DNA of 64,000 bases from Mobula hypostoma (lineage: Eukaryota), in the NCBI RefSeq assembly GCF_963921235.1, contig NC_086108.1:67830001-67894000 (forward strand), given 5' to 3'. A program made the position numbers and the translations under genes. Position 1 is the first letter of the stretch. Each line of letters starts with the position of its first letter. Positions 11,092 to 64,000 of this stretch are shown one piece after another. A model generated the notes under the pieces. It worked only from the letters and a program-made list of their open reading frames with translations, was not told the origin of the DNA and did not search any database.

Positions 11092-13189
11092 GTCATAAAG
11101 AAGGAAAAGATGGAACTTGAAGGTAAGCTAGCCAATAATATTTAACAGGATATCAAAAGTTTCTTCAGTTACATGAAGTGTAAAAGAGAGGCAAGGGTAG
11201 ATATTGGAGCACTGGATAACAATGCTGGAGAGGTAGTAATGGGACAAGGAATGGCAGGTGAACTGAATAAGCATACTGCACCAATCTTCACAGTAGAAAA
11301 CACTAGGAGTATGCAGGAAGTTCAAGAATGTCAGGGGGCAGAAGTGAATGAAGTTGCCATTACTAGGGAGAAGGTTCTTGGGAAACTGAAAGGTCTGAAG
11401 GTAGATAAGTCACCTGGACCAGATGGTATACACCCCAGGGTTCTGAAAGAGGTGGATGAAGAGATTGTGGAGACATTAGTAATGATCTTTCAAGAATCAA
11501 TTGATTCTGGCATGGTTTTAGAGGAATGGAAAATTGCAAGTGTCTCTCCACTCTTCAGAAAGGGAGAGGAAAGGAAATGATTGGCTAGTTAGTCTGACCT
11601 CTGTGTTTGGGAATTTGTTGGAGTCAATTGTTAAGGATGTGGTTTCAGAGTGCTTGAACGCACATTATAGAACAGATTGTAGTCAGTATTGTTTCCTCAA
11701 GGGAAAATCTTGCCTGACAAATCTTTTGGAATTCTTTGAAGAAATAACAAGCAGGATAGACAAAAGAGAATCAGTAAATGTTGTGGATCTTCAGAAGACC
11801 CTTTGACAAGGTGCCACACATGAGGCTGCTTAACAAGTTAAGAGCCCATGCTATTACAAGAAAATTACTAGCATGGATAGAGTATTGACTGACTGAAAGG
11901 AGGCAAATAATAGGAATGGAGCCTTTTGTGGTTGGCTGCTGGAGACTAGTGGTGTTGCACTGGAGTCTGTGTTTGGACTGCTTCTTTTTTAAGTTATATG
12001 TCAATGAGTTGGATAAGAGAATTGAGGGCTTTTTGGCCAAATTTGCAGACGATACAAAGATAGGTGGAAGGGCAGGATAGTTTTGAAGAAGTAGAGAGGC
12101 TATAGAAGGACTTAGACAGATTAGGAGAATGGGCAAAGAAGTGGCAGAGGGAACATAGTGTCAGCAAGTGTACGGTCATGCACTTTAAAAGGGTAGGCTA
12201 TTTTCTAAATGGAGAGAAAATTCAAAAATATGAGGTGGAAAGGGACCCGGAAGTCCTTGTGCAGAATTCCCTAAAGGTTAATATGCAGGTTGAGTCAGTG
12301 GTGAGGAAGGCAAATGCAATGTTAACCTTCATTTCCAAAGGACTAGAATATAAAAGCAAGGATATAATTTTGAGGCTTCATGAAGCACCAGTGAGGCCTC
12401 ACTTGGAGTATTGTGAGTAGCTTTGGGTCTCTTTTCTAAGAAATGATGTGCTGACATTGGAGAGAGTTCAAAGGAGATTTACAAAAATGATTCCAGGATT
12501 GAGAGGCTTGTCATATGAGGGGAGCGTTCGATAGCTCAGGACCTCGACTTACTGGAATTCAGAAAATGAGGTATGACTCATTGAAACCTATCGAATGTTG
12601 AAAGGTATTGATAGAGTGGATGTGGAGAAGATATTTGCTATGGTGGGGGAGTCTAATATCAGAGGACATAGCCGGAGAATAGAGGGGCATTCTTTTAGAA
12701 TAGAGATAAAGAGGTATTTCTTTAGCCAGAGAGTGTTGAATCAGTGGAATTTATTGTTACAGGAGGCTGTGGAGGCCAAGTCATTGGGTATATTAAAGGC
12801 AGATGTTGGTGGATTCTTGATTAGTCAGAAGAGATGAGATACAGGGAGAAGGCAGGAGTTCGGAGCTGAGAGGGAAAATGGATCAACCATGATGAAATAG
12901 CAAGCAGACTCAATGGGTCAAATGACCTAATTCTGCTCCTACATCTTATGGTCTTATGGAATCCTCACAAGAGACAGGGTGGGACAAAGACTAACTGAAA
13001 TAAGTCTGTAGGCTTGTAATTTGTGTGTGTGGCTAGCCCATCCCTTTGGAGGGAGACAACTGGATTGGTAATGCTTCCTGTCCGCACACAGAACTTGAAA
13101 ATTCTGTTACTACTTCTTCCAGTTTCTACTGTGTTTTCAGCTTCAAATGACCCACCTCAGAGGCTTTCATTAACTTTACAGGAGATAGG

Positions 13190-33690: not shown

Positions 33691-36253
33691 ATGGTGATGA
33701 GTAAATTTTTTTTAAAAACCCGAGACGACTATCTACTTGTTGAAGCGCAGCATACTTTTTTCTTCACAAGGGAAGAAAGATGAATGAGTTAAAAAAAAGC
33801 AGAAAACAGACAAAATTTATGGGTTCATAAACAGTGACAATGATAATACATTTTTTAAAAGCAGAAACAGCTGGCTATATTGGAAAGATAGATGTGTTCG
33901 ATTGCACAGCAGATAACTGGGTGATGTATATGGAATGAATTAAGTAGTATTTTGAAGCAAATGAAATAGCCAGTTTTTCTGAGTGTAATATATGGAAAAT
34001 CATACAGCTTGCTTAACAGTTTGGCTTCTCCAACCAATCCAGCCAGAATGAGCTTTGCTGATATCATGAAAGTAACATAGGAAAATTTAGAACCAAAATG
34101 ATTGTTGCTTGCAGAATGCTGTAAGTTTCATAAGTGGAATCAAAATGAAAGGGAGCCCATTTCAGCATATGTAGCTGAATTGAAGAAATTGTCCAAGCAT
34201 CGTCTGTTCAGTGATGGGCTTAATGATGCACTGAGAGATTATTTACTTTGTGGAATCTTACAAGAAATCTTTCAAAAACAGCTCCCAACTTCAAGTTGTG
34301 AAGCACAATTCACATTTAAAAGAGCAGTTGGAATCACTCTTCTTGCAGTCAGGAATGGAAGTAAGCATGAACAAAATTGTAATGTCTAAACAGAAACCTG
34401 CCTGGCCGAACAAAATGTGTTACCGTTGTAACAGGAACTCACTTTCACCAGATCAATGCAGGTTTAAAGGTGAAACCTGCAGAAAAAGCAGCAAAGTAGG
34501 ACATATGCAAAGAGCATGTCGGGCAGACAAAAATAAATGGACTGCACAGGGAAGAAGAAAAGATAAAAAGTCAATTTGCAGTTTCAAAACGAGCACTAAT
34601 CTGCATGCTGTTGATGAAAAGTATGATAATGATGAGTGTGACACAGGAATGAATAGCCTTGAGACTTATAATGTAAAAACTAACAAGACATAACCAATAT
34701 GGTTTATACTTGAAGTGAATGGCAAATTAATTAAAAAGGAAGTGGGTACTGGCTCAGGTGTTTCAGTCATTCCACAAAATGAGTTTGAAAGGCATTTCAA
34801 AGATACTGAACTGAAGCCTGCAGATATCTAACTAAGAACTTATACTGGAGAAAAATTCATAACAGTGAAATACAACAAGCAACAAGCCACATTGGGCTTG
34901 TATATGGTAAAAACAGGAGGGTCAGTATTGTGGGGCTGTGATTGGCTGAGACAACTATAATTTGATTGGGGATCCACCTACAATTTGCATGACATATCCC
35001 CTGCAATAGAGTCAACTGAAAATGAATTAAGAAAAGGTACCGGACTATGCCACAGGAGTGTTCAAGGATAGCACTGGAAAACTCAGACATATTAAGGGTA
35101 AAGAAGCATTAAATGAAAATGCCACACCCAAGTATGGCCACACCCTTCTGGTCCATATACCATCCAAGATGAAGAATCCAGTGAGCTAGATCACATGGAA
35201 GCTGAAGGAATTATTTGTAATGGTGAGTGGAGCCCATGAACAATGCCAGTGGTCCCAGTAGCCAAGATGGATGGGTCTTTCAAGACCTGTGGTGATTTTA
35301 AGGTCAGCATCAACCCAGTACTGATAGTAGAACAATATCCTCTGCCCAGGATAGAGGACAACTTTGCAAACCTTTCTGGAGATAAATACTGCAAGGTGGA
35401 CTTAACTGAGGCTTACCTACAGATGGAGATGGAAGAAGAGTCCAAAGTGTTTCCCACCATAAACATTTACAAAGGGCTTTATTGACATAATAGGCTTATT
35501 TTTGGAGTAACATCTGCACCTGCCCTCTGTCAGAAAGCTACGGACCAGGAGCTGCAAGGCAGCCCAGGCTCTCAGCATTCCCTGGATGACAAGGAACATC
35601 ACCAGAATCTCAAGACAGTGTTAAAAAGATTAGAACATTATGGGCTCAGATCTCAATGCAGCAAGTGTGAATTCTTTAAACAAAACATCACTTACAGTGG
35701 TCACACCATTGACACACAACTATTACACAAGTGTGCTGAGAAAATTCAAGCAGTGGTGGATGCCCCAAGGCCAAAGGACCGGTCACTGTTGTGGTGGTTT
35801 TTAGGATCGGTCAATTACTGTAACAAGTTCCTACCAAACCTGGCGACTGTGCTCCACCCCTTGAACTCATTACTACAGATTGGGAAGAAATGGCAATGGA
35901 AAAAACAGTGTGATGTGGCTTTCCAAAAGACAAAGGAAATAGTGACACCAGACAGTGTACTCACACATTACGATTCGCATTGTCCGGTGAAGCTTGCCTG
36001 TGACACTGTATAGGTGCAGTTAAGTCACATGTTATGTGTGATGGAAGTGAACGCTTCATAGCCTTGGCATCCTGTTCTCTTACTGCTGCAGAGAAAATTA
36101 TGATTGACAGAGAGGTCTTGAGTCTGGTTTGGAGTGTAAAACTTTTCAACCAGTTGAACCGCATTACTGATCATCAATCACTAGTGGCTGGGATCAAGAA
36201 ACGATCTCAAGCGGAATTGAAAAATTGAGCAGAAAGCAACCGCTAGACAAGTG

Positions 36254-47179: not shown

Positions 47180-47724
47180 CTTCTTTTACTACTGTGTTTG
47201 CAACATTTTATGCAAATTAGCTTAATGTATGGATTAAAACTAAATGACACAACTGAACTTTGCACCAAAACACTGAATACACAGTTCTTCACTAAAATAA
47301 TCTCGGTTTCCTTTCAGTAAACTGGAGCACAGTTTCTTTTGTGATGGATAGTCACTTCCTAGGCCTCTTGCTCATGTTTGCAAAGCTTGCTTCCTAAAAA
47401 CAGCAGCTGCCACTTGAACAATCAAACAGATGTAAGTAATCTTCCAACCAAGTTTGTTTAGCTTCTGTTTGTACATGGGAGTTAGTCATCAGTTCTTAAA
47501 ATGAAAATGTAAAGCAGTAATCAGTTTGAAGTTAAAAACATAGCTTTGCAAACAAGCTCTATATATAGTAGATGCTCTGTCTGTAGAAAGCAGATGCTAG
47601 CTCATACCATCCTGTCTTGCAGATCAGGAGTGCAGTATAAGACAATGGGTTGTTTAATTTGGCTTGTTTCAAAACAGACTAACTGACTAAGTTGTTTAGT
47701 TTAAGGAAGCTTGCAGACCAAGTA

Positions 47725-49252
47725 GGAAGAAGCTGGAGAGATTACGGAGGCATTAAAAACGATCTTTCAAGAATCGATAGGTTCTGGTATTGTGCCGGAT
47801 GAATGGAAAATTGTAAATGTTACTCTGTTATTAAGAAGGATAGGAAGCAGCAGAAAGGAAACTACAGACTTGTAAGCCTGACATCAGTGGTTGGGAAGTT
47901 GTTGGAATCAATTGTTAGGAATGAGATTACGGAGTACCTGGAGGCACAAGACAAGATAGGCCAAAGCCAACATGGCTTTCTGAAAGGAAAATCCTGCTTA
48001 ACTAACCTACCGCAATTTTTTGAGAAAATTACAAGCAGGGTAGACAAAGGAGATGCAGTAGATGTGAGGGTGTACTTGGATTTTCAGAAGGCCTTTGACA
48101 AGGTGCCGCACATGAGGCTGCTTAGTAAGATAAGAGCCCATGGAATTACAGAGAAGTTACTAGCATTGGCTGATCGGCAGAAAACAGAGAGTGGGAATAA
48201 AGGGATCCTATTCTGGCTGGCTGCCGGTTACCAGTGGAGTTCCACAGGGGTCGGTGTTGGGACCGTTGCTTTTTACAATGTATGCCAATGATTTGGACTA
48301 TGGGATTAATGGATTTCTGGCTAAATTTGCCGATGATACAAAGATAGGTGGAGGAGCGGGTAGTGTTGAGGAAACAGAGAGCCTGCAGAGAGACTTGGAT
48401 ACTTAAGAGGAATGGGCAAAGTGGCAAATGAAATACAATGCTGGAAAGTGTATGGTCATGCACTTTGGTGAAAAAAGTAAACGGGCAGACTACTATTTAG
48501 ATAGGGAGAGAATTCAAAATGCAGAGATGCAAAGGGACTTGGGAATTCTTGTACAGGATACCCTAAAGGTTAACCTCCAGGTTGAGTTGGTGGTAACGAA
48601 GGGGAATGCAATGTTGGCATTCGTTTATAGAGGTATAGAATATAAGAACAGGGATGTGACGTTGAGGCTCGATAAGGCACTCGTGAGACCACGCAGAGTA
48701 TTGTTTGCAGTTTTGGGGTCCTTATTTTAGAAAGGATATACAGTACTGACATTGGAGAGGGTTCAGAGAAGATTCATGAGAATGATTCCAGGAATGAAAG
48801 GGTTACTGTATGAGGAACGTCTGGCAGCTCTTGGGCTGTATTCCCTCGAGTTCAGGAGAATGAGGAGGGAATCTCCTAGAAACATTCAGAATGTTAAAGG
48901 GCCTGAACAGATTAGATATGGCAAAGTTATTTCCCGTGGTAGGGGAGTCTAGGACAGGAGGGCAGGACTTCAGGATTGAAGGATGTCCATTTGGAACAGA
49001 TGGGGAGAAATTACTTTAGTCAGAGGGTGGTAAATTGGTGGAATTTGTGGCCATGAGCAGCTGTCGAGGCCAAGTCATTGGGTGCATTTAAGGCAGAGAT
49101 AGATAGGTTCTTGATTAGCCAGAGAATCAAAGGGGTTGGGGTGAAAGCAGGGGAGTGGGATGACTGGAAGAATTGGATCAGCCCATGATTGAATGGTGGA
49201 GCAGCCTCAATGTGCCGAATGGCCTACTTCTGCTCCTGTATCTTATGGTCTA
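47725..49252 (+). mobile_element. CR1 LINE 3' portion
   Basis: YLDFQKAFD, GVPQGSVLGP, FADDTK and a TCTTATGGTCT tail. Confidence 0.93.
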
Positions 49253-50335
49253 ATGACCAGACAAATAATATAATTTAGCATATCAAATAACTGATCCATT
49301 AATGTTGGAAGACTTATATATTCAAGGAAGCTAGCTTTACAGCATAATGGTTGAAAATTGAGATCTATGTCTCCAAATAGCTCTTAGACAATTTGTGTTA
49401 AAAGGAAATATCACATACATGTGAGGTCACACAAGTAGAAAGAGAAACTGTAAAAATGTAGAAAGCAGTTTAGGTTTATTGGGAATGGTGTAAGGAGCAT
49501 CAAATACCATGAAAGAAATACAATATGAACTGGAATCCATTCCTCTGGCTTCAGTTTCTGCAACAGACGATTCATTCATCTGCATCATTGGTATGTCCTT
49601 TTAGTTCACAGGAATTGTACTTGTGTTTTGGAAATCCTTTGTCTTTTGTTTTAGAAATGGTTTGTAGTTTGAAAATACTTAAGATAGAAGTCCTCTGCGA
49701 GTTTTAAATGTGTTTTAAGAATGTTGTTTGGTTTTAAATGTGTATTACTGAACTGTGTTTTAAACTACAAACATACTTTGTCAGCTGGAAGATTCTTCTT
49801 GGTAGGGAGAGGAGACCCACAGCCCGAATAGTGGGTATTGGCAGCTAAACTTACTGTGGAAAATGAACAGGGAAGTGAACTAATCTTTGAAGATTGGGTA
49901 GTTACAGTATAATCTCCCTTTAGTGGGAGTACTCATGGTTATTTATATCCCATAAGGGTTAAGTCCTTCGTTTGAGTTTAGAACTTCATGATCAGCAAAC
50001 CACTTGGTGCCTGACATGGTCACATTATACCAAAGTATTATCTTAGAAAGAAATATAATTTGGCAGTAATCCAATTCAGAGAGCTCTCGACAAGTGCTAA
50101 GACAAACCCCTCTGTATGACCTGCTGGACTCAGACCATGACAATGTATACCAGATCCCATCAACATAGCACTAATTTGTGCCTGGACACAACAAATTTGT
50201 CCCTTTTTAGACAGAAAACAAGGACCCAGGTGGGGGCTACATGCCTATGTGATAGAACCTGGCAACCCATATCTTAATCCTGATGTATGGGGACATCATG
50301 TACTCCTCCAGGCACACATAAGGTAACGCCTACAC

Positions 50336-50416
50336 CAGTAAATTCCCAACCTGGTGTCCATGGAACTCTTGCTTAATGGTATTGGTCCATGGCATAAAAA
50401 AGTTTGGGAACACCTG
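50336..50416. mobile_element. Short hAT/Charlie-like MITE in the ERV gag
   Basis: TIR-like cagtaaattcccaacct / agtttgggaacacctg, flanked by 8-mers gcctacac / ccctagaa. Confidence 0.6.
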
Positions 50417-50911
50417 CCCTAGAAGCACTAATGAAGCCTAAAGAACAAATGCTTGGGAACATGCACAAGAGTTACTAAAAAGAATGACTATAAAATAATA
50501 CAGGGCAAGTTCCTGTACAGGGAGCCACTGCAGCTTCCTGAATACAAACTTCCCTACAAGTTTTTAGATCTTTAGCTATTCAGAGTTTGCCAGCAGATTT
50601 GTGTCACACCTCCAGCTGATGCTGAAGGAATTCTGAAGAGGCTACTTCAGAATGCTGGGAGGTTACAGGCCTTCTGGGTCAGTCACATTCACCAGCATAT
50701 ACGGCATTTCTTATTAATGTTATTTCCCATTGCCATGGTACCGCTTCCATATGAGTGTGGAAATCCATGTGTTTATAAACAAATTAATGGTGTAGATGTA
50801 CTGTGCACAGAGGACTTTGCATTGCATTGAGTAAAATAGTCAAAAGCCAGGGCCTTAATAACAGCTTTTAAGATCAGAGAACAAATGGCAAGGACAGACT
50901 TGGACCTGGTT

Positions 50912-52265
50912 CACTCCGACATTACATCAACGACTGCATTGGTGCTACTTCCTGCACCCATGTGGAGCTCATCGACTTCGTCAAATTTGCCTCCAATTTC
51001 CACCCTACCCTCAAATTTACCTGGTCCATTTCTGAGATCTCCCTCCCCTTTCTCAATCTCTGGAGACAGTTTAACTACTGATATCTATTATAAACCCACT
51101 GACTCTCACAACTGCCTGGACTATACCTCTTCCCATCCCGTTACTGTAAAGCTGCCATCCCCTTTTCTCAATGTCTCCATCTCCGCTGTATCTGCTCTCA
51201 GGATGAGGCTTTCTATTCCAGAACGAAGGAGATGTCTTCCTTCTTCAAAGAAAGGGGATTCTCTTCCTCCACCATCAACACTGCCCTCAACCACATTGCT
51301 TCCATTTCACGCATTGTCCCGCCACCCTACCAGCGATAGGGTTCCTCTTGTCGTCACCTACCACCTCAAAAGCCTCCACATCCAGCACATCTTTCCCTCC
51401 CCCCCACTTTCTGCTTTCCACAGGGATCACTCCCTATGCGATTCCCTTGTCCATTCATCCCTCCTCACTGATCTCCCTCCTGGTATTTATCCTTGTAAGC
51501 TGAACAAGTGCTACGTCTACCCCTAAACCTCCTCCTTCACTTCAACTCATGGCCTTCCAGGTGAGCCATCACCTGTGAGTTTGTTGGGGTCATCTACTGT
51601 ATCCAGTGCTCCCGGTGTGGCCTCCAGCATATCGGTGAGACCTGACGTAAGTTAGGAGACCACTTTGCTGAGCACCTATGCTCTGTCTGCTGAAAAAGCT
51701 GGATCCCCCAATGGCCACCCATTTTAATTCCACTTCCCATTCTCATTCCGACATGTCAGTCCATGGCCTCCACTACTGTCGCAATGAGGACACACTCATG
51801 ATGGAGGAGCAACACGTTATGTATATTTCATCTGGGTAGCCTCCAACCTGATAGCATGAACCTCAATTTCTCAAACCTCCAGTAATGTTTCCCCAATTTC
51901 ACCATTCCTCATTCATTTTTCCCTCTCTCACATTATCTCCTTACCTGCCCATCACCTCCCTCTGGTGTTTCTCCCTGTTTTCTTTTTTCCATGGCCTTCT
52001 CTCCTCTCCTATCGGATCCCCCCTTCTCCAGCTCTGTAACCCTTTCACCAATCCACTTCCCAGCTCCTTACTTCATCCCTTCCCCTCATGATTTCACCTA
52101 TCACTTTATGTTTCTTCTTCCTCCCCACCCCCACCTTCTATCTCTGCCTCCTCATCTTTTCCCCTCCAGTCCTGATGAAGGGTCTCAGCCCAAATTGTCG
52201 ACTGCACTCTTTTCCATAGATGCTGCCTGGCCTGCTGAGCTCCTCCAGCATTTTGTGTGTGCTGC
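50912..52265 (+). mobile_element. Penelope-like element 3' portion (RT C-terminus, GIY-YIG region, decayed hammerhead)
   Basis: TDIYYKPTDSHNCLDYTSSHP; GVIYCIQCSRCGLQHIGET at ~51587-51645; cagtcCTGATGAagggtctcagcccaaattgtcgactg at 52167-52204. Confidence 0.88.
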
Positions 52266-52616
52266 CTTGTTCATTCGACAATGTTACCCGTTTATCCTCG
52301 TGGAAATCTCTGCACCAGGTGTGGAAAGGCCCTTAATCAACACCCAATGCATGAAGGATTTCAGGACGTTGGAGAGATCCTGTGCACCCACATGGCAGTA
52401 GCTGGATTCCCACTCATTCCCACACAAGGGCAACTAAGTTCCCTGCTTTTCCCTCTAAAGGGAACGTACAGTCAGCATCAAAGTCCTCATACCAACATCA
52501 TTCTTTGGACCTATTGCATTCATACTGTTATCCTACACCAGCCTCTCTTCAGGGAAGAAGTGATCAATAATCCAAACAAGTTCTTTAGAGCCAACCCGAC
52601 TTAGGAAGAGACATTC

Positions 52617-53037
52617 GTTGTCGTCATCGTCGTGGCTATCCCTCAAGGTCGAGGATGATGGTCTTCGTTCTGAAGAAGTGGCCCACAGAGCGAAGACGCC
52701 TATGCATGTATTTGTTTAACGTGTACTTGATGTTGCACTCCAAGAAGCACACGATACTTCACAAATCAGCCAAATGATTCCAATGGCATGGAAACCATGA
52801 TGATTGGAGCTAATTGATTTGTTGCAGCCTTCATCCGCCTTCACAGTCGTTGAGTTTGAAGTAACTTCGTCTGCCTGTTCCACCATTGAGGTCTTGGTTG
52901 GATTGTTCTTTGTCAGGGACCTCACCCTTGATTTTACTACCATGGGTGACCCTACCAGGAGCATAGCTCCAGACGGCATTGCTCTTGGGATCAAAGGACC
53001 ACACAAGCTTCTCCACCACAACAAGGTGACAATCCAC
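52617..53037 (-). mobile_element. Short non-autonomous RTE-like element
   Basis: Near-TSD agacattc / agatattc and a (GAC/GAT)n-type tail. The RTE assignment rests on recalled similarity of the UTRs. Confidence 0.55.
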
Positions 53038-55098
53038 AGATATTCACCCACAACTGAGATGGCTAGATGCTAGGTATAGGCCATGGCCTTTAGCTCCACT
53101 CCCTTCTCTAGCAGAAGAAAGTCTTAGACCAAGATACTCCTTCTGGGACAGAGGTTACATTCAGAGGCCCCATCAATAATATGGAGAACAGTATGAAACT
53201 GAGCCCATGACATGAGGCCCACCTCATCCTTCACCCTCTAAATATACAGAGGGACAGGGCCCATCCCAAACATCCACTCGCTGCCCTGCAGCTCAGGGAA
53301 AACAAAATACAAAGAAGGAGAAGGCTAATGTCAATATTAAAAAAAACTGCTCGGGAGAATTTCAGCAGCAACTCTACTCAAAATGCTCCAACCGATGAAT
53401 AGGATACAGGCATACCTATTCTTGCCTTTCCATACGCTAAATCTTGGATTTTCAGCAAAATTTGACCCTGCCATTTTGATACAGTAATAGACATTATAAC
53501 AAATGCTGGAAGTATCTGACTCATAAAAGTATAAATCTCGTACAAATCTGGCCAATGGCTCCTAGTCACACCTAATTCTTGCAGGTGACAGATAGAGGCA
53601 ATGTAATTAACATTAAAAAATCTCACTGTCGCACAGAAGTAAATTTTCTAGGTATGACAATTACCAGTCAGGGATGTGGTTTAACCCCTGAATTTAGACA
53701 TAAAGTTGCTTGAGTAAGCTATCCAAAGACCATAAAAGCCTTACAATTAAGCCTAGACCTATTAAATTATGGTAGCATTTTCATGCCTCTATGCTCAATT
53801 ATTAAAACCATTACATGACAGAGATAAAACAGATAAATGAAAACCCTTTTGTTTTTGCTGCAGAAGATTATGAGGCAATAGAGAAATTCATGAATACAGT
53901 TCAACAAGCAATAGACTTCCAGACAGATTACTTAACAAAATCTCTTGTTCTGTGAATTTGTGTTTCTCCAAAAACCATATAGCCACCTGCTTTAATGAGG
54001 GAGAAGAAACACAAATGCCCATAAACTATGCCTCATATAAATTCACCCCAATAAAACAAAAAAGTACAGCCTTTGAACAATGTTTTACTATGGTATGCCA
54101 TATACTTATTGGAGTAGGACCACGGCAAGGGGACAAACTAATTGTTATACAAAAAATGTTTGTGGCTATGACAAATGATACCAAATTACTAATGAATGAA
54201 CGGAGAATTGTCATAACTAGATATGGGGGTTAGCAAATATTTTTATAAGACAACACCTTGAATTGGAATACTTTCCTGAGAGCTGTGACTTACAGTCCTT
54301 ACCTGTCATTGTGGCTCAACATTCTTTCGAGCACCATTCTCAAATATGGTACTGTGATGGATCAGCAATGAAAATCTAGAAAGGTGGATCAACTCAGTTA
54401 TAATCCCTGCTCTTTAATATACAAGGAAAAATGTTATTGAAACTAAATTTGAACCACATGAGTTGTGAGTAAAATCATACAGCACAGTTTGCAGAGGCTA
54501 AAGCCTTAGAATTACGTCTAGAACAAGTAACTATAACAGAACCAGTCCGGTTTTAATTATGTTAGGCATATGGTAGAAAGAGTTCTTCCTATCTGGTCAG
54601 CTACCAGATGAAGAACACACAGAGGAAAACTGTTTCCATACTGGTCTACGTGGAATAAGATTTGTGAATCATTATTGACTCAACCATTAGTACAGGTGTT
54701 ACATATCCTGGGACATACTGCAGGCCGATTACACAGTGATGGTAACAAACTAGGCAATAAACAAATAAAACAGGCTGCTGGGATGGACCTTATGTTAGTA
54801 AGGGAGACCAGGGTTTTGGGATTAACTAAGCAACAAATACAAAATAGCCAAGATAATATTTTAAGTGTACTCCTCGATACTACTGAACCCAATTCCAAAT
54901 GATTTCCAACACTGTACAGATTTAAGGCTGATGGCAAAGGTAAGGTTTGGGTCTGCTGCCCTAAAAATAATAAGAAACAAATCCCTCCTGTCCACAAGTG
55001 GGAAGCACTGATTCGAGAAGCTCACCAAGGATCTGGACACAATAACAGTGGCAAACAAGCCACTCATGCAAAATTAGCCATGCTATATCGGTGGCTTT

Positions 55099-55279
55099 GG
55101 GGTGCGTGTGAGGGGTAGCACCTCTAGATGGGGGGCTTGTCGCACTCCTTGGAGTGGCTCGTCATCTGCTGGTCCCCACCAATGCCCAGCTCTCACCTGT
55201 GGCTCCTCGTAGCTGTTTGCATGCGACAGCGGCCACACCCCGGGCAACATCTTCGACAGGCCGGCTAAGCCAGGTGACT
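55099..55279 (+). mobile_element. GC-rich short insertion in the ERV integrase (possibly RTE-UTR-derived)
   Basis: 9-bp TSD GGTGGCTTT (55090-55098 / 55280-55288). Removing it restores LYRWLYMLRDC, resembling PFV LYWWPNMRKDV. Confidence 0.7.
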
Positions 55280-55316
55280 GGTGGCTTTACATGTTGAGAG
55301 ACTGCAAATAATAAAG

Positions 55317-55487
55317 AATGTTATTCATTGCTATTACTTAAGTTTGCATTTGCACAGTTTGCTGTTCATTGATCCTGCTTACAACTACTGTTCTATAGAT
55401 TTGCTCAGTATGCCCGCAGCAAAGGGAATCTCAGGATTGTATATGGTGACAGGTATGCACTCTGATAATAAACTTGAACTTTGAACC
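55317..55487 (+). mobile_element. LINE 3' tail inserted in the ERV integrase
   Basis: TSD ATAATAAAG (55308-55316 / 55488-55496); AATAAA plus a TTGAACT tail. Confidence 0.65.
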
Positions 55488-56378
55488 TATAATAAAGGAG
55501 CAATCACAAGACCAACTCTTACATGATCAACAAAACCAACTGCAGCAATGCAGGTGTGGCAAATTGATTACATATGCCTATTTCTGGCGTCCTAAGACAA
55601 CCGGCCTTAACAGAAACCTATTAAGTATATTCTTGTGATAATTGATCTTTGGATGGAATATACATGGTTAGTCACCATGACTTCTTATAGTGAGATCACA
55701 ACTTTCACAGCACTCCAAAACTGCCTAGTCCCATATACTGGTACCCCTGCCTGCATGCGTACCAAATGAGGGTTTTCCCTCAGTGCTAAAAGCTTTCAAG
55801 CTATGTGTGAACAAACAGGCAAACAAGTGGAATGCAACACTCCAATCCAGCAGCAACCAAGTGTCATGTTGGAGTGAAATAATTGAAAGATTAAGGAGGC
55901 CTGGCAAAACTGATCTACTCTAGAGGCAAGGTAATCTCCACATGTCCCTGAAGTCCGACTGTCCATAAACAAAATGCCAATTGTGAAAACAGGAGTACAC
56001 AAGAATGTTACACCTTATTTCTTGATGTACAATGTTCACCTAAGTACACGCCTGATCACTAACTCAGGCCAATCATCACCTTTACCCGATACAACTATCA
56101 TCAAGGAATTGAAAGTGTATGGGAATTCAAGAGAAAGTAAAAGAAACTGACTAGACAATTTGGAGACACCAAAAAAGGGGATAGGTCCAAGAAAAGATAC
56201 TTCATAAAAATAATTCTGTCACTACGTTCCATCCTGGATGGAACCCCCCTCGTCTCATTACCCAGGTTATCAACGATAGAACTGCAGTAATGGAGACCAG
56301 AAGGGAAAACAAAACTATAAGTAAAACCTTCCCCAGGGGGAACATAAAACCTGGCCCAGCAGAATTTCTTCCCCTAGA

Positions 56379-58660
56379 ATGAGTAGAACCCTTTTATTAC
56401 ACTGGTACATGGGTTTACTACAGAACACCTAAAACCCAGCGGGATCTGGGGGGCGGGGTAGGGGAGGTAAGCTATATTGAAAATATAGAACACATGTTTA
56501 CATCTGAAAAGCAATTAAATGTTCCTGTTCACTCAGAATCAGAATCAGAATCAGGTTTATTATCACAGGCATGTGACATGAAATTTGTTAACTTAGCAGC
56601 AGCAGTTCAATGCAATACATAATCTAGCAGAGAGAAAAAAGAATAATAATTAAAATTTAAAAAAAATAATAATAAATAAACAAGTAAATAAATAAATACT
56701 CGAGGAAGAACTCACAGACGCATTGACCAGGGATAGTACATCCAGAATACCTTGTTTTTAGAGTAAGACAGACTCAAATTCCCGGAAGAAATGTATTTTA
56801 CTTTTAATATTTGTATTTGACTTTTAATATCTGTGCTTATAATAATGTTATTCAATGCTGCCTTACTTTCCATTTTCTTTTTCGCAAAGTTGCATCTACT
56901 ACGGAAATTGCCTTATCTGGCTCAAATACCCCTAAAACTTAATGACTCAGAGAATACTAGATTAAGCGGATATGCGAGCAATGATGATTCTAATTTAAAT
57001 ATCACTAAATGGTCCTTACCTTTTGGTCATCTGTAAACTAATACACTGGAACCTTTAATCTTTGCCTCTGGCAAAGTGATTGTGCCCATCCACTTAAGCA
57101 TTCACTCTGACCGCATTGCAGATGAAATGAACATAGATACGTGGGAAGGCAAAGAATCATTTGCGCAAATGATTAATGACATCCTAACAGAACTGCAAGG
57201 TTCCAGCACAGATATTGAAGGTAAACTAATAGAGAAATTTCTTAACATGGATCCCTCTACACTTGAAGAAAAGTACGGACACTGTTTTGTTGATAGATGA
57301 TCAAACTCATGGGAACATGACATTGAAATCATTAGACTAGAGCATTGTGAAGGATTATTTTTTTTTACTGAAGACTTCTCTGTTAGACGGATATTGTACT
57401 TTTCCTTTATGGCCAACAAGTAATGACATACTTACTGAAAATACATTAGACATTTTCATTTCTCCATTTATGGCCACTATTGCACTCCATTGTTAAATGA
57501 CAATTTTTGCATTTCTGGGTTATGTTCTAAATGGTTCAGCAAAGCCCTTGATCCTGGTGTTTTCATGGGAAGATAAGATCGAAAGATGCACTGAAGCAGA
57601 AGCTAGGTGCAATAAAAATGTTTTCCCCAGTCAACTGAAGCTGTTAAGTCCAATAGGTTTATTAGGGATTTTAGTCCCATAGACTATTGTAGTTGTCCAG
57701 ATCTTCAATTTTTTCTTAATCAAACACCCACAAATAGTTTGTGCTGTGGTGTGACTAATACGTTACAATGAAAATCAGTTCAGTATTATTGGTGCCCTTA
57801 CAAATTCAATTACATTTCAGAGGGACTTTAACGACGAGTTGAAAAACTATTGGAGACCAATTGATAATGTTAAACTTTGGGATTACCTAGATAACATTAC
57901 TTCCTAATTATACAATGTTACATGCATAGACAAGCCTTCAGTTATTGTTGTGTATTCACTCGCATGGTGTTATCATCAACAGGCAGAGAGAAAAAAAGCG
58001 ATTCGACCCTAAACAATTTTCATGATTTTAAAAAAAATTTAGAGTAAAACTCCCTGTACAGTCATGTCTTATCAGTGCTCACTCTCATAATAGCATTGAT
58101 ATGATGCTTTGGTTCACTGAAGGTAGAAATTTCTGATGACAAAAGTCACTCAAGCATACTGTTATCAGAGGATCACACACTTTTAAGGTTTATAAAGGGA
58201 ATGGCTTTGGAGTAATTTGATGATTTAATCTATGTTGTGCAGCTCAAGACAGAAACACAAATCCAGTCTTAAGGTACGATTTATGATGGATGCAACAAAG
58301 AATGTTCATCAACATTGGTTAAAGGACGTCAGACACATTAAAAGAATATTTCTCTATGCATTATGATAGTAACTGAACAAACACAATCAAACGAATGAGG
58401 TAGTTCCATTCACAAGTTTCCTTTGCAGGCTCATACTAAGCCCCCAAATGGCTTAATGCTCTAGCTAAAACAATAGCTAGGACCTTTCCAGCTGTTGTAC
58501 ATCTGGCTTCTGCACAATATATATAGCTTCTGGGTGAACTGGCACTACTTTAAACTGAGTTGCAGATATTTTTGTAGTTTTCCAATGGACAATTCCCATA
58601 GGCATTGGAACTATTGTTTTTATTGTGTTGCTTTGGTTGTGATATATTGAAGCCTGCAAG
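56379..58660 (+). pseudogene. env: Foamy-like env remnant (leader hydrophobic segment, SU, basic cleavage site, TM with membrane anchor)
   Basis: ORF 57076-57300 LSIHSDRIADEMNIDTWEGKESFAQMINDILTELQ...EEKYGHCFV resembles PFV LMINSENIANNANLTQEVKKLLTEMVNEEMQSL...QEFANCYL. RQREKKR at ~57981-58001. ISDDKSHSSILLSEDHTL resembles INDENLQQGIYLLRDHVI. PKWLNALAKTIARTFPAVV resembles PAWIQQLAAATKDVWPAAA. Anchor IPIGIGTIVFIVLLWL. Confidence 0.82.
56533..56698 (-). mobile_element. Rex1-like 3' tail inserted in the ERV env
   Basis: (AGAATC)n tail and near identity to 20591-20700. Confidence 0.85.
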
Positions 58661-58805
58661 GATGAAATGTTGGTGACTTCTTTTTGTATAACGGCTCCAC
58701 TCCTAAGACTCCATTAACTCCCATACTTACCCTGCAGTACTATAAGTTACCTCTTCTATAACTGTTTTGCTCTCCTCTGCCTCTTACTCACCTCTTTGCC
58801 TATTC

Positions 58806-58909
58806 AGCATCTCTAGGAAGAGGTGCCTAGAGATGCTGCCTGGCCTGCTGCGTTCACCAGCAACCTTGATGTGTGTTGCTTGAATTTCCAGCTTCTGCAG
58901 AATTCCTGT
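58806..58909 (+). mobile_element. Short Penelope-like terminal insertion with an inverted 5' piece
   Basis: 13-bp TSD TCTTTGCCTATTC (58793-58805 / 58910-58922). The body matches 36729-36812. Confidence 0.85.
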
Positions 58910-59079
58910 TCTTTGCCTATTCCTCTGGATTGTCCTTGACCCTGGTAGAGTAAAGATCAGGGCCTGCCCCGATCATGCCATTCTTGCTCCTCTCCTTTTG
59001 CTAGTCCTGATCACTAACATTGATATCATCATTTGGTTCACTTGGAAGGTAGAAATTCATGTATATTTGTCGCCTCATC

Positions 59080-59400
59080 TTGAGTAACATCAGGAAGGAA
59101 GAATATGAGAAGCTGGAGAAATACCAGGGCTTGAAACAGCAGATAGAAAGGATGTGGAAGGTTAAAGTCACAGTAATCCCGATGGTGATAGGAGCACTTG
59201 GGGTTGTGACACCTCGAATGGGAGAGTGGCTCCAACAAATCCCAGGAACAGCATTTGAGATCTCGGTCCAGAAGAGCGGAACAGCAAGGATACTGCGCTG
59301 AGCCCTCAAGCCAAGCTCCCAGGCCTCTGGAAAGGTCCCGAGATTGAGGAAAAAATACTCATACACACCACCCATAAGGAGTGAGAAAAAATTTTAAAAA
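59080..59400 (+). mobile_element. 3' end of a restriction-like-endonuclease LINE (R4/Dong/Rex6-like)
   Basis: KEEYEKLEKYQGLKQQIERMWKVKVTVIPMVIGALG..WLQQIPG..SVQKS. Confidence 0.78.
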
Positions 59401-59681
59401 TTTACAATGTACATAATAATAATACGGTTCTTAAGATTTTGTATAATGTACTTTGTAAATATTTTGATTATTGCTAATGATGGCATCATACTTAGCACGT
59501 TTACACTTTTGACTTTTAAAACAATTTATCTTACTATATTCCGTGTGTTATGGCATACAATGATGGAAGACTTACCAGGAGGAGAAAGATAGCTACCCTT
59601 GGGGCATGCTGTACTCCTGATAACCTTTTTACCTATTCTGTTGTGATTTCTTTGGAAATGGTGATGCAATTCTTGAACCTG

Positions 59682-59793
59682 ACGAAGGGTTCCGACCAAT
59701 CTTTTCCACGGATGCTGCCCGACCTGCTGAGTTCCTCCAGCGTGTTGTGAGTGTTGCTTTGACCCCAGCATCTGCAGATTATTGTGTGTTTAT
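59682..59793 (+). mobile_element. Short Penelope-like terminal insertion starting at a partial hammerhead core
   Basis: 14-bp TSD AATTCTTGAACCTG (59668-59681 / 59794-59807); CTGACGAAGGG..gatgctgcccgacctgctgagttcctccagc..ccagcatctgcaga. Confidence 0.8.
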
Positions 59794-60019
59794 AATTCTT
59801 GAACCTGCAAGGTCTCCAAAGTGTTATATTGTAACAAGGTAGAAATATTTGAATGTGCTTACTATTCACTTATTATTTTGATATAAGCATACATTGTACA
59901 TGTGGTACTCCTACAATGCAACAAGTAGGACCACTAAGCCTACCAATATTACAATTCATTTTATATTTAGTGTTACTAGAATAATTTGTATATTTGATTG
60001 ATAAAATCCCATGATTTCA

Positions 60020-63000
60020 AAAGCTGAAAGGCAGGACCTCTAGGGTAATAATCTCAGGATTACTGCCTGTGCTACGTGCTAGCGAGTGCAAGAATAGCTT
60101 GATCAGGTGTATTAATGTGTGGCTGAGAGACTGGTGTAGGGGGCAGAGATTCTGATTCCTGGATCACTGGGGCCTCTTCTGGGGGAGGTACGACCTGTAC
60201 AAAAAGGATGGGTTACACCTGAACCCAAAGGGGTCCAATATCCCAGCGGACACATTTAATAGGGCTGTTAGCGAGGGTTTAAATTAATTTGACAGGGAGA
60301 CGGGAAATGGAGTGATAGGACTGAGGAAAGGAAAAACAGAAATAAATCAAAGATAGCGTGCAAGAGCGATTATCGAATGAACAGGCAGGAGATGAGGCTT
60401 AATCAATGCCAGTGGCATGAGTTACAGGGCAATGGAGGTGTGGTGCAGTTAAAACAGAAAGCAACAAATACTGGACTGAGGGTGTTGTATTTGAATGCAC
60501 ACGGCATAAGGAATAAAATGGACGATCTTGAAATTCAGCTACAGATTGGCAAATACAACGTTGTGGCCATCTCTGAAACTTGGCTAAAGGATGGCTGCCA
60601 TTGGGAGCTGAACATCCAAGGATATACAGTATATCAGAAAGATAGGTTAGTAGGCAGGGGGCATGGTGTGGCTCTGTGTATAAGAAATAATATTAAATCA
60701 TTGGAAAGAGATGACATAGGATTGGAAGGTGTAGAGTCTCTATGGGTTGAGTTAAGAATGGCAAGGGTAAAAGGACCCTAATGGCAGTTATATACAGGCT
60801 TCCAAACAACAGAAGGAATGTGGATTACAAATTACAGCAGGAGATAGAAAAAGCGTTTCAGGAAGGCAATGTCATGATAATCGTTGGGGATTTTAACATG
60901 AAAGTGGATTGGGAAAACCAGGTCAGTACTGGACCTCAAGAGAGAGAATTTGTAGAATGTCTAAGGGATGGCTTTTTAGAACAGTTTGTTGTTGAGCCCA
61001 CTAGGGGATCGGCTGTGCTGGACTGGGAGTTGTGCAATGATCCGGACGTAATAAGAGAGCTTAAGGTTAAGGAACCCTTAGGAAACTGTAACCACAATAT
61101 GATTGAATTCACATTGAAATTTGAGAGAGGGAAAAAATGAAATCCATTGTGTCGGTATTTCAGTGGAATAAAGGAAATTACAATGACCTGAGAGGGGAAC
61201 TGGCTGAAGTTGACTGGAAAGGGACATTTGCAGAAAAGACAGCAGAGCAGCAATGGCTGGAGTTCCTGCGAAAAATGGGGGAAGTACAAGACAGATATAT
61301 TCCAAATAAAAAGAAATTTTCAAAGAGAAGAAGGACACTACTGTGGCTGACAAGTAAAGTCAGAGCCAAAGTAAAAGCACAAGAGAGGGCATACAAGGAA
61401 GCCAAAGCTAGTAGGAAGATAAAGGATTGGGGAGCTTTTAAAAACTTGCAAAAGGAAACTACGAAGGTCATTCGGAAGGAAAAGATGAATTATGAGAGGA
61501 AGTTGGAGACAAATATCAAAGAAGATACTAAAAGCTTTTTTAAATATATAAAGGGTAAAAGTATGTCAAGGGTAGATATAGGACCAATACAAAATGACGC
61601 TAGAGGTATTGTAATGAGAGATGCAGAGATGGCAGAGGAACTGAATGTGTATTTTGCATTAGTCTTCACAGTGGAAAATGTCTGCAGTATACTGGTCATT
61701 CAAAAGTGTCAGGGAAGTGAAGTTTGTGTAGCGAAAATTACGACTGAGAAGAAGCTCAGGAAGCTTAATGGTCTGAGAGTGGATAAATTTCCTGGACTTA
61801 ATGGAATGCACCCTTGGGTTCTGAAGGAACTAGCTGGAGAGATTGCGGAGGCATTAACAATGATCTTTCGAGAATTGATAGATCCTGGCATTGTACCAGA
61901 TGACTGGAAAATTGCAAATGTTACCCTCCTATTTAAGAAGGGTGGGAGGCAGCAGAAAGGAAACTATAGGCCCATTAGCCTGACATCAGTGGTTGGGAAG
62001 TTGTTGGAATCGATGGTTAGGGATGAGATTATGGAGTAGCTGGGGGCACATAACAAGATCGGCCAAAGCCTGCATGGTTTCCTGAAAGGAAAATCCTGCC
62101 TGACAAACTTACTGCAATTCTTTGAGGAAATTACAAGCAGAGTCGACAAAGGAGATGCAGTAGGGGTGGTGTACTTGGATTTTCAGAAGGCCGTTGACAA
62201 GGTGTCGCACGTGAGGCTGCTTAGCAAGATAAGAGCCCATGGAATTACAGGGGAGTTATTAGCATGGGAGGAGCATTGGCTGGTCAGCAGAAAACAGAGA
62301 ATGGGTATACTGTAAATGGATCCTATTCTGGCTGGCTGCCGGTTACCAGTGGAGTTCCATGGGGTCAGTTTTGGGACCACTGCTTTTTACGAAGTATGTC
62401 AATGATTTGGACTACAGTATTAATGGATCTGTGTCTAAATTTTGTGTCTAAGATAGGTGGAGGAGCGGGTAGTGTTGAGGAAACAGAGAGCCTGCAGAGA
62501 GACTTAGGTAGTTCAGGGGAACGGGCAAAGAAGTGGCAAATGAAATACAATGTTGGAAAGTGTATGGTCATGCACTTCGGTGGAAGAAATAAACAGGCAG
62601 TCTATTATTTAGATGGGGAGAGAATTCAAAATGCAGAGATGCAAAGGGATTTGGGAGTCCCTGTGCAAGATACCCTAAAGGTTAAACTCCAGGTTGAGTC
62701 GGTTGCAAAGAAGGCGAATGCAATATTGGCATTCATTTCTAGAGATATAGAACATAAGAGCAGCGATTTGATGTTGAGGCTCTATAAGGCACATACGGAG
62801 TATTAGGACCACACTTGGAATATTGTGTGCAGTTTTGCAGTTTTGGGCTCCTTATTCTAGAGAGGATATACTGACATTGGAGAGCGTTCAGAGAAGATTC
62901 ACGAGAATGATTCCAGGAATGAAAGGGTTACCGTATGAGGAACGTCTGGCAGCTCTTGGGCTGTATTCCCTGGAGTTCAGGAGAATAAGGGGGGATCTCC

Positions 63001-63362
63001 TAGAAACATTCAGAAGGTTAAAAGGCCTGGACAGATTAGATTTCCCATGGTAGGGATTCTAGGAGAAGAGGGCACGTCTTCAGGATTGAACGATATCCTT
63101 TTGGAACTGAGATGTGGAGAAATTACTTTAGTCAGAGGGTGGTAAATCTATGGAATTTGTTGCCACAAGAGGCTGTGGAGGCAAAGTCATTGGGTGTATT
63201 TATTTAAGGCCGAGATAGGTAGGTTCTTGATTAGCCAGGGCATCAAAGGATATTGGATGAAAGTAGGGGAATGGGGATGAACTGGATCAGCCCATGATTG
63301 AATGGGAAGCAGACTCGATGGGCTGAATGGCCTACTTCTGCTCCTATATCTTATGGTCTTAA
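60020..63362 (+). mobile_element. Long degraded CR1 LINE: ORF1 esterase C-terminus plus full-span ORF2
   Basis: ORF1 VIISGLLPV..WCRGQRF..DGLHLN at 60045-60290. ORF2 LYLNAHGIRNK, AISETWL, VGDFN, RT motifs and a TCTTATGGTCTT tail. Confidence 0.93.
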
Positions 63363-64000
63363 TAGACTGAGTAGTCCTGGCTCAGTTGAAGTTTTCTTGG
63401 AAAACTCAAAAGTTGGGAAGATGTTGTCAGTTCTTCTCAGTCAGGCCAAATCCTTAACAAAATAAAAGGGGAAGTCCTGAAATCTCGGTAGATGGTATGG
63501 TTGGTCTCACAATGTTAAGTTACAGCAACCAATGGGTGTTCACTCCCATTGTTGGGATATACCCACCCCAATATTCTGACAGCTTTTTTTGGGAGCCTAG
63601 ATTTAAAGGTATAGGCAGAAACCCCAACAAAGGAGCTGTATTCTTCCTTACTTTTGTAAACATTTCACCTTTTATGTATATCATTATATTGTGACATCAT
63701 GTAATTTTCTATAACTAAAACATGAGATTACTAATCCTTAGGCAAAAGAGGGCAGCAATACACAATCAATAACTTGTTTACAATACTCATTTTCAGGAAA
63801 CATGAGTAAAGTTGAAAGCAATGTGAACATCCTCTGAAAGAGATGAACCATCTTCAGCTTACTGAAAGACACTGCCAGCTGACCTGATGAACTAACCATG
63901 ACAGACGCAGTTATTCAAACTTCCATGAAGGAAATTGCAAGAACTGCTTGTGGAAGAAGATTTTAAAGATGGACTGATATGGACTTATAAGATGGACAAA

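What the first reader, a model, noticed from the sequence alone, without database searches (positions are those of the whole stretch)
49900..58660. Endogenous foamy-like retrovirus retaining gag, pro-pol and a spumaviral-type env
Seen: collinear plus-strand peptides across ~8.7 kb that are largely missed by the ORF track because of stops, frameshifts and insertions. Knowledge (recalled PFV sequences): the RT thumb FLGMTITSQGCGLT matches FLGFNITKEGRGLT; the connection domain plus a retroviral RNase H, the integrase N-terminal extension (DGKGKVWV..KQIPP..EAH), the Gag N-terminal GP-RWG..GNPY motif and the Env blocks are all of spumaviral type. Inference: an ancient germline insertion of a foamy-like virus in a probable cartilaginous fish, a host group with few described foamy-like ERVs. 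It may be an undescribed lineage.
Basis: partly seen in the sequence, partly recalled or inferred. Interest (0 to 1): 0.9.

Follow-up and report, generated by a model that had tools for sequence, protein, structure and literature searches.

The report
Foamy-like provirus lacking its copying enzyme
This is a decayed copy of an ancient foamy-like retrovirus that had already lost the core of its protease and reverse transcriptase before it inserted, yet spread to dozens of sites in the genome, most likely by borrowing enzymes from full-length relatives.

Summary
The element is real and foamy-like. RT thumb, integrase core and RNase H profiles match foamy proteins best. Two env pieces hit Pfam Foamy_virus_ENV. 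Pol groups with foamy viruses at 99/100. A foamy-type primer site follows a ~1.15-kb LTR. It is larger than reported (47,340 to beyond 64,000) and does not retain pro-pol: two deletions remove most of the protease, the RT fingers and the catalytic palm. At least 38 copies, the window included, share both junctions. Long-form copies and a copy with only the first deletion coexist. All are equally diverged (K2P 0.26, star tree) and have unrelated flanks. Best reading: a non-autonomous derivative mobilised in trans during one old burst. Gag and pro lie in one frame, split by TAG, unlike exogenous foamy viruses, so I do not file it in Spumaretrovirinae proper. The host group was not verified. A 2023 paper on cartilaginous-fish foamy ERVs could not be read, so lineage novelty is open.

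The parts
47340..47723 (+). 5' LTR, first part (starts TGTG)
   Evidence: Likeness to other copies begins here and flanks differ; matches both LTRs of copy L021
47724..49254 (+). LINE fragment inserted into the 5' LTR
   Evidence: Absent from other copies; 84% like the LINE at 61,825-63,359
49255..50003 (+). 5' LTR, second part (whole LTR about 1.15 kb)
   Evidence: other copies end in ATCACA
50005..50022 (+). Primer binding site, decayed, like that of exogenous foamy viruses (tRNA-Lys1,2 label recalled)
   Evidence: Same place in 16 other 5' ends, two bases after the LTR end; same layout in three foamy genomes
50103..53399 (+). gag remnant, broken by stops, frameshifts, a ~200-nt private deletion near 50,100 and insertions at about 50,343-50,416, 50,917-52,264 and 52,617-53,037
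   Evidence: central domain matches the foamy Gag profile in other copies; Y-x-L-R-like motif near 53,135 is a resemblance only
53400..53402 (+). TAG between gag and pro, both in one frame
   Evidence: TAG in 9 of 14 mapped copies plus the window; all six inter-anchor lengths are multiples of 3
53403..53484 (+). Protease N-terminal remnant, ending at deletion D1 (545 nt against L026, about 640 nt against most long copies)
53485..53585 (+). RT remnant around motif A (foamy Pol ~246-262), ending at deletion D2 (224 nt; removes the LPQG and YxDD region)
   Evidence: 14 of 21 copies hit Pol 205-275, only 4 of 21 hit 266-336
53586..54777 (+). RT thumb, connection domain and RNase H, broken
54849..56400 (+). 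Integrase (N-terminal extension, core, C-terminal part), interrupted by insertions at about 55,099-55,485
56698..58700 (+). Foamy-type env remnant, about 2.0 kb (shorter than the ~985-aa mammalian Env), hydrophobic stretches at 56,821 and 58,568
58701..64000 (+). 3' internal region (native pieces 58,701-58,805, 58,910-59,022, 59,421-59,670, 59,810-60,013, 63,361-64,000) split by SINE/LINE insertions; 3' LTR lies beyond the window and was not reached
   Evidence: no Tas or Bel2 hit

Best explanation
The stretch is one dead provirus of a multi-copy foamy-like ERV family. Shown: foamy-type Pol, Env, Gag centre, primer site and long LTRs; two pol deletions with shared edges; long, singly deleted and doubly deleted copies of equal age at unrelated sites. 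Inferred: during one germline burst a genome lost most of protease and RT fingers (D1), then the RT palm (D2, between two ~9-nt direct repeats, as in a template switch during reverse transcription). It kept LTRs, primer site, gag and env regions, so its RNA was still packaged and copied by Gag and Pol from long-form relatives (complementation in trans). After insertion all copies decayed and collected host repeats. Also inferred: the parent virus made Pol by reading through the TAG that ends gag.
For: Foamy identity: thumb profile E 5e-17 to foamy Pol versus 0.19 for the best non-foamy chain; integrase 8e-8 versus HIV 1.6e-3; RNase H foamy only. Of 84 proteins, three foamy-type Pols hit 21 of 21 copies, gamma/epsilon-type ones at most 4. 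Tree 99/100; PF03408. Shared deletions: 16 of 20 rows show a D2-sized gap, 11 exactly 224 nt; 7 of 15 rows give D1 as exactly 545 nt, the rest split or unresolved; 38 of 40 scored hits span both junctions. Helpers existed: 40 palm matches and 40 scored loci with the D1 segment. Intermediate: L055 has the same D1 edges and keeps the palm. One burst: K2P 0.259 deleted-deleted, 0.263 deleted-long, 0.258 long-long, inner branches under 0.01. Retroviral insertion: flanks of four deleted copies 46-51% alike versus 64-71% inside the LTR; deleted copy L021 has both LTRs. Readthrough layout.
Against: The star tree cannot show that the deleted copies are one clade: no inner branch is starred and the bootstrap had not settled. 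No target-site duplication was seen for L021 and the window's 3' LTR was not reached. Env hits are below Pfam's cut-off, 0 of 10 copies score in the 3' half of env, the env profile found no foamy chain in PDB and hhalign gave 1.5% probability. Whole-frame Pfam and genome-wide PF03408/PF03276 searches were blank. Copy proportions come from capped searches. Readthrough is read from frame only.
Confidence: 0.78

Rival explanations
1. The deletions arose again and again from intact templates (a hot spot at the short repeats, or splicing of genomic RNA), so each deleted copy is a dead-end product of a long-form parent and not a self-propagating sub-lineage.
For: Direct repeats at both D2 edges and a 3-base overlap at D1; no supported branch separates deleted from long copies.
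Against: Two separate events with the same edges co-occur in 38 of 40 scored hits. A D1-only copy exists and no D2-only copy was seen among those examined. The D2 junction keeps the bases a GT-AG intron would remove. Three long copies group weakly apart (85/70).
Confidence: 0.13
2. The deleted copies multiplied as DNA (segmental duplication) or as LINE-made processed copies.
For: The genome is rich in LINEs, including an 836-aa open frame in the window.
Against: Likeness stops at the LTR start and flanks are unrelated; L021 has two LTRs; primer site kept.
Confidence: 0.03
3. The element is another class III or lokiretrovirus-like element drawn to foamy viruses by long branches.
For: In-frame stop between gag and pol as in XtERV-S (PMC8278194); RNase H of lokiretroviruses groups with foamy (PMC7947760); the tree used LG+G4, has long branches and holds no row known to be a lokiretrovirus.
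Against: Env pieces hit PF03408, not the paramyxovirus fusion family; the Gag centre hits foamy Gag; the thumb prefers foamy by 15 orders of magnitude.
Confidence: 0.05

Closest known systems
Exogenous foamy viruses (simian, feline; loci L042-L051, P0010, P0011, P0085)
   Same: Pol domains, Env and Gag-centre likeness, primer site two bases after a long LTR, room for accessory genes after env
   Different: They start pol at its own ATG overlapping the gag end (PMC8278194 passage); here gag-TAG-pro is one frame. Env is ~2.0 kb here against ~2.95 kb. No Tas/Bel2 likeness.
Fish and shark foamy-like ERVs (CmiFLERV, AciFLERV, AliFLERV: PMC5512871; teleost ERVs: PMC5210030; ERV-Spuma.0-Sca: PMC10699275)
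   Same: Basal place relative to tetrapod foamy viruses; tRNA-Lys primer site; a teleost Env of 718 aa; complementation in trans was suggested for AciFLERV/AliFLERV
   Different: Only pol was found in ghostshark; no conserved Gag domain in the PMC10699275 genomes. No shared RT-core deletion was seen in the passages read. Sequences were not compared directly.
Cartilaginous fish endogenous foamy virus (Wang, Chen, Cui 2023, PMC9972966)
   Same: By title, the same kind of element in the presumed host group
   Different: Unknown: only the citation was seen; this family may be the same or related.
Defective/competent ERV pairs: bovine ERVK[2-1-LTR] D/C, ETn/MusD, IAP-I-delta-1/IAP, RecKoRV/KoRV-A (PMC10924933)
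   Same: A shorter non-autonomous form copied by a competent form of the same clade
   Different: Those are orthoretroviral (class labels recalled) and recent; here the pair is foamy-like, long dead, and made by two internal pol deletions with an intermediate preserved.
P0001 (unnamed 1,687-aa protein, Logan)
   Same: Sister to this family in the tree (81/77, weak); Gag and Pol in one frame
   Different: No stop between Gag and Pol; intact; host unknown.

Membership tests
Spumaretrovirinae | Pol groups with foamy viruses | tested here: met
   99/100, basal to the tetrapod group
Spumaretrovirinae | Foamy-type Env with N-terminal anchor and C-terminal membrane helix | tested here: met
   PF03408 E 3.5e-5 and 0.021, below cut-off; 8 of 12 copies at 5 bits or more in one block, controls 0; two hydrophobic stretches
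Spumaretrovirinae | Foamy-type Gag (central domain, N-terminal domain, chromatin-binding motif) | tested here: inconclusive
   Centre met in 4 of 14 copies; N-terminus 0 of 11; C-terminus 0 of 16
Spumaretrovirinae | Primer site as in most foamy viruses, two bases after the LTR | tested here: met
   about the first 15 bases agree in the best-matching copies
Spumaretrovirinae | Pol from its own start codon in a frame other than gag | tested here: not met
   Gag end, TAG and protease are one frame; stops per frame 5/36/49 before and 5/14/12 after; no Met seen in the 10 protease-start pieces printed
Spumaretrovirinae | Accessory genes tas/bel2 and internal promoter | tested here: inconclusive
   Native DNA lies between env and 3' LTR but gives no profile hit; one weak TATA-like word
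Spumaretrovirinae | 4-nt target duplication and GGGTG at the PPT/LTR border | tested here: inconclusive
   One copy only (L021): G-rich tract present, neither motif nor duplication clear at 20% divergence
Spumaretrovirinae | No Cys-His box in Gag | not tested
   Not scanned; none noticed in the pieces printed
Non-autonomous ERV complemented in trans | Many independent insertions share one disabling deletion | tested here: met
Non-autonomous ERV complemented in trans | Competent relatives of the same age | tested here: met
   Long copies of equal divergence; their past competence is inferred
Non-autonomous ERV complemented in trans | Deleted copies form one lineage | tested here: inconclusive
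   Star tree
Lokiretroviruses | Env like paramyxo-/pneumovirus fusion protein (PF00523) | tested here: not met
   Only PF03408 on the window's env pieces; feature from PMC7947760

The most novel reading that the evidence does not exclude
An early branch of the foamy lineage that already had foamy Env, Gag core and primer site but still made Pol by stop-codon readthrough, so that separate Pol expression arose later in foamy evolution; and its germline burst was overtaken by a defective-interfering derivative whose stepwise origin (full, D1, D1+D2) is preserved as fossils, a case not found for foamy-like ERVs in the papers searched.
Probability: 0.4. Interest if true: 0.72.

Novelty: new variant of a known kind. 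Interest (0 to 1): 0.52.

Why it matters
Endogenous foamy viruses are called extremely rare (PMC8922424), yet this family has roughly 80 or more loci by lower bounds (38 deleted, about 39 with the palm). RT-based screens would miss the deleted form. It extends the defective/competent ERV pattern to the foamy branch and to deep time. The in-frame amber stop bears on when the foamy-specific way of making Pol arose.

Tried and rejected
Whole-frame Pfam scans, genome searches with PF03408 and PF03276, a phage DNA search, Rfam, the protein atlas (best 0.81), a word-indexed search with the thumb alignment and a viral-contig scan with P0001 were blank or uninformative. First idea of one large deletion was replaced by two. 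A separate pol ATG overlapping the gag stop was considered: the ATG is not shared by the copies and the frame test favours the in-frame layout. GT-AG splicing was rejected for D2 and is undecided for D1. L032 was first labelled long; it and L038 are unresolved. L034 was dropped from the flank count because its LTR start was mis-anchored. LTR pairing for L036 failed. Sequencing runs: no RNA holder listed; a second organism label holds 0.51 of the words and three others 0.05-0.08; none was laid, so orthology is not shown and the small shares are no evidence. A full ultrafast-bootstrap tree timed out; one search used 24 of its 42 rows. Earlier scan findings: none.
Full report
Observation. The window lies in a 3.48-Gb assembly of 200 contigs. 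Three-frame reading of 49,600-60,100 shows short retroviral-looking peptides among many stops. Whole frames gave no relevant Pfam hit, so I used other copies. A search with 53,400-55,100 gave 59 matches from 40 scored of 364 candidates, mostly at 71-80% identity. Twenty were fetched as 10-kb loci; this sample favours copies built like the window.

Anatomy. Comparison with the 20 copies separates native DNA from later insertions. The element starts at 47,340. Its 5' LTR (about 1.15 kb) is split by a LINE and ends near 50,003. A primer site follows two bases later in other copies, as in exogenous foamy genomes. Gag runs to 53,399, pol remnants to about 56,400, env from about 56,700 to 58,700. 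Native pieces continue to 64,000 and beyond; 3.5 kb further downstream held more insertions and no 3' LTR. About 8.8 kb of the 16.7 kb from 47,340 to 64,000 is native.

Foamy identity. Profiles of short single-frame pieces searched against PDB gave: thumb, foamy Pol 5e-17, best non-foamy chain 0.19; integrase core, PFV 8e-8, HIV 1.6e-3; RNase H end, 5 of 5 hits foamy-type. Against 1.84 billion representatives the RNase H/integrase profile gave 9 hits: six amphibian retroviral proteins, an unnamed intact Gag-Pol (P0001), a 47-aa piece and one repeat-rich chance hit. Of 84 proteins collected, three foamy-type Pols hit 21 of 21 copies and P0001 19; gamma/epsilon-type proteins (label from Pfam content, recalled) hit at most 4. 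A tree of 24 of 42 rows, 568 columns, LG+G4, puts four copies with P0001 (81/77) inside a 99/100 clade with the foamy viruses, apart from ERV-L-like, gamma/epsilon-like and Gypsy rows. Env: two window pieces hit PF03408 and nothing else (E 3.5e-5, 0.021); 8 of 12 copies score in the second block with no control hit, but 2 of 14 in the first and 0 of 10 in the 3' half. PDB and hhalign tests of env were blank or weak.

Two deletions. The window and 11 of 20 copies have only 173-177 nt between the protease Asp region and the thumb (9 lacked an anchor). Foamy Pol residues 1-205 hit none of 21 junction regions, 205-275 hit 14 and 266-336 hit 4. L025, L026 and L033 keep the missing DNA. D2 is 224 nt in 11 of 20 rows and of similar size in 5 more. 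D1 is 545 nt with the same edges in 7 of 15 rows; the others aligned in pieces or not at all. L026 has itself lost about 95 nt there, so D1 is about 640 nt. D1 begins inside the protease catalytic motif; D2 removes the LPQG and YxDD region. Long copies carry a ~9-nt direct repeat at both D2 edges, which fits a template switch (mechanism from general knowledge).

Family. 38 of 40 scored hits of 200 candidates span both junctions. The palm segment gave 40 matches from 40 candidates, an equal-length thumb query 132 candidates. Sorting those 40 thumb hits by hand against searches gives 14 long, 12 doubly deleted, 1 other and 13 unknown. So the long form is about a third and the deleted form one to two thirds. 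L055 has D1 with the same edges and keeps the palm. Distances are the same within and between classes (0.259, 0.263, 0.258) and the tree is a star. Four deleted copies have unrelated flanks and L021 has two LTRs. A genome without protease and RT cannot copy itself, so helper enzymes are required (inference). PMC10924933 describes the same pattern in cattle and names mouse and koala cases.

Gag-pol border. TAG stands at 53,400 in the window and 9 of 14 mapped copies (2 CAG, 2 TTG, 1 TAA; 6 of 20 did not map), 78 nt before the protease Asp in 6 of 10. All six inter-anchor lengths are multiples of three, and this frame has the fewest stops on both sides. Exogenous foamy viruses use a separate start in another frame. 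This defining feature is not met, so the element is foamy-like, not a member of Spumaretrovirinae proper. Readthrough is inferred; a spliced pol message with an upstream start is not excluded.

Age and host. The LTR pair of L021 differs by K2P 0.199 over 1,083 sites. With the amphibian rates used in PMC5512871 that is 65-108 Myr, for illustration only; shark rates are reported as low, which would make it older. The host group was not verified; cartilaginous fish rests on recalled repeat types.

Literature seen. Named sections, passages and supplement passages: PMC5512871. Named section and passages: PMC5210030. Abstract and one section: PMC10699275. Passages only: PMC7947760, PMC10924933, PMC8278194, PMC8922424, PMC10587355, PMC10581153, PMC11468914, PMC12386078, 10.1101/2020.12.18.423569, 10.1101/2021.11.23.469661. 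Citation only: PMC9972966. Searches showed no report of an RT-deleted non-autonomous foamy-like family or of readthrough in one, judged from listings and passages. Figures, bioRxiv supplements and PMC9972966 could not be seen and may hold either.

Verdict. A real foamy-like ERV of a known kind, with two features that lift it above routine: a defective form amplified in trans with its intermediate preserved, and an in-frame amber stop before pro. Interest 0.52.

Noticed in passing
P0001: Unnamed intact 1,687-aa foamy-like Gag-Pol in one frame on a 10,956-nt Logan contig; possibly a young or circulating basal foamy-like virus.
   Followed up: partly
P0012: Unnamed 1,156-aa Pol with the foamy protease family on a 10,295-nt Logan contig, basal to the mammalian foamy rows.
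   Followed up: partly
window 8,617-11,127 (-): 836-aa open LINE-type endonuclease/RT frame, a young copy.
   Followed up: partly
window about 23,400-26,350: About 2.9-kb CA-rich simple repeat array.
   Followed up: no
window 34,235-36,013: Gypsy-like Gag and RT/RNase H fragments (label by eye).
   Followed up: no
L021: Deleted-form copy that also lacks env and most of the 3' region but has both LTRs.
   Followed up: partly
G000:C91:46943157-46943620: A copy that seems to carry a different single pol deletion, joining the protease/RT start directly to the thumb.
   Followed up: no
L039; L032: L039 has an internal inversion of env and 3' region; L032 has a rearranged gag/pol border.
   Followed up: no
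window 50,343-50,416: About 75-nt element with inverted ends in gag, also found at other places in L023, L028 and L031; MITE-like by eye.
   Followed up: no
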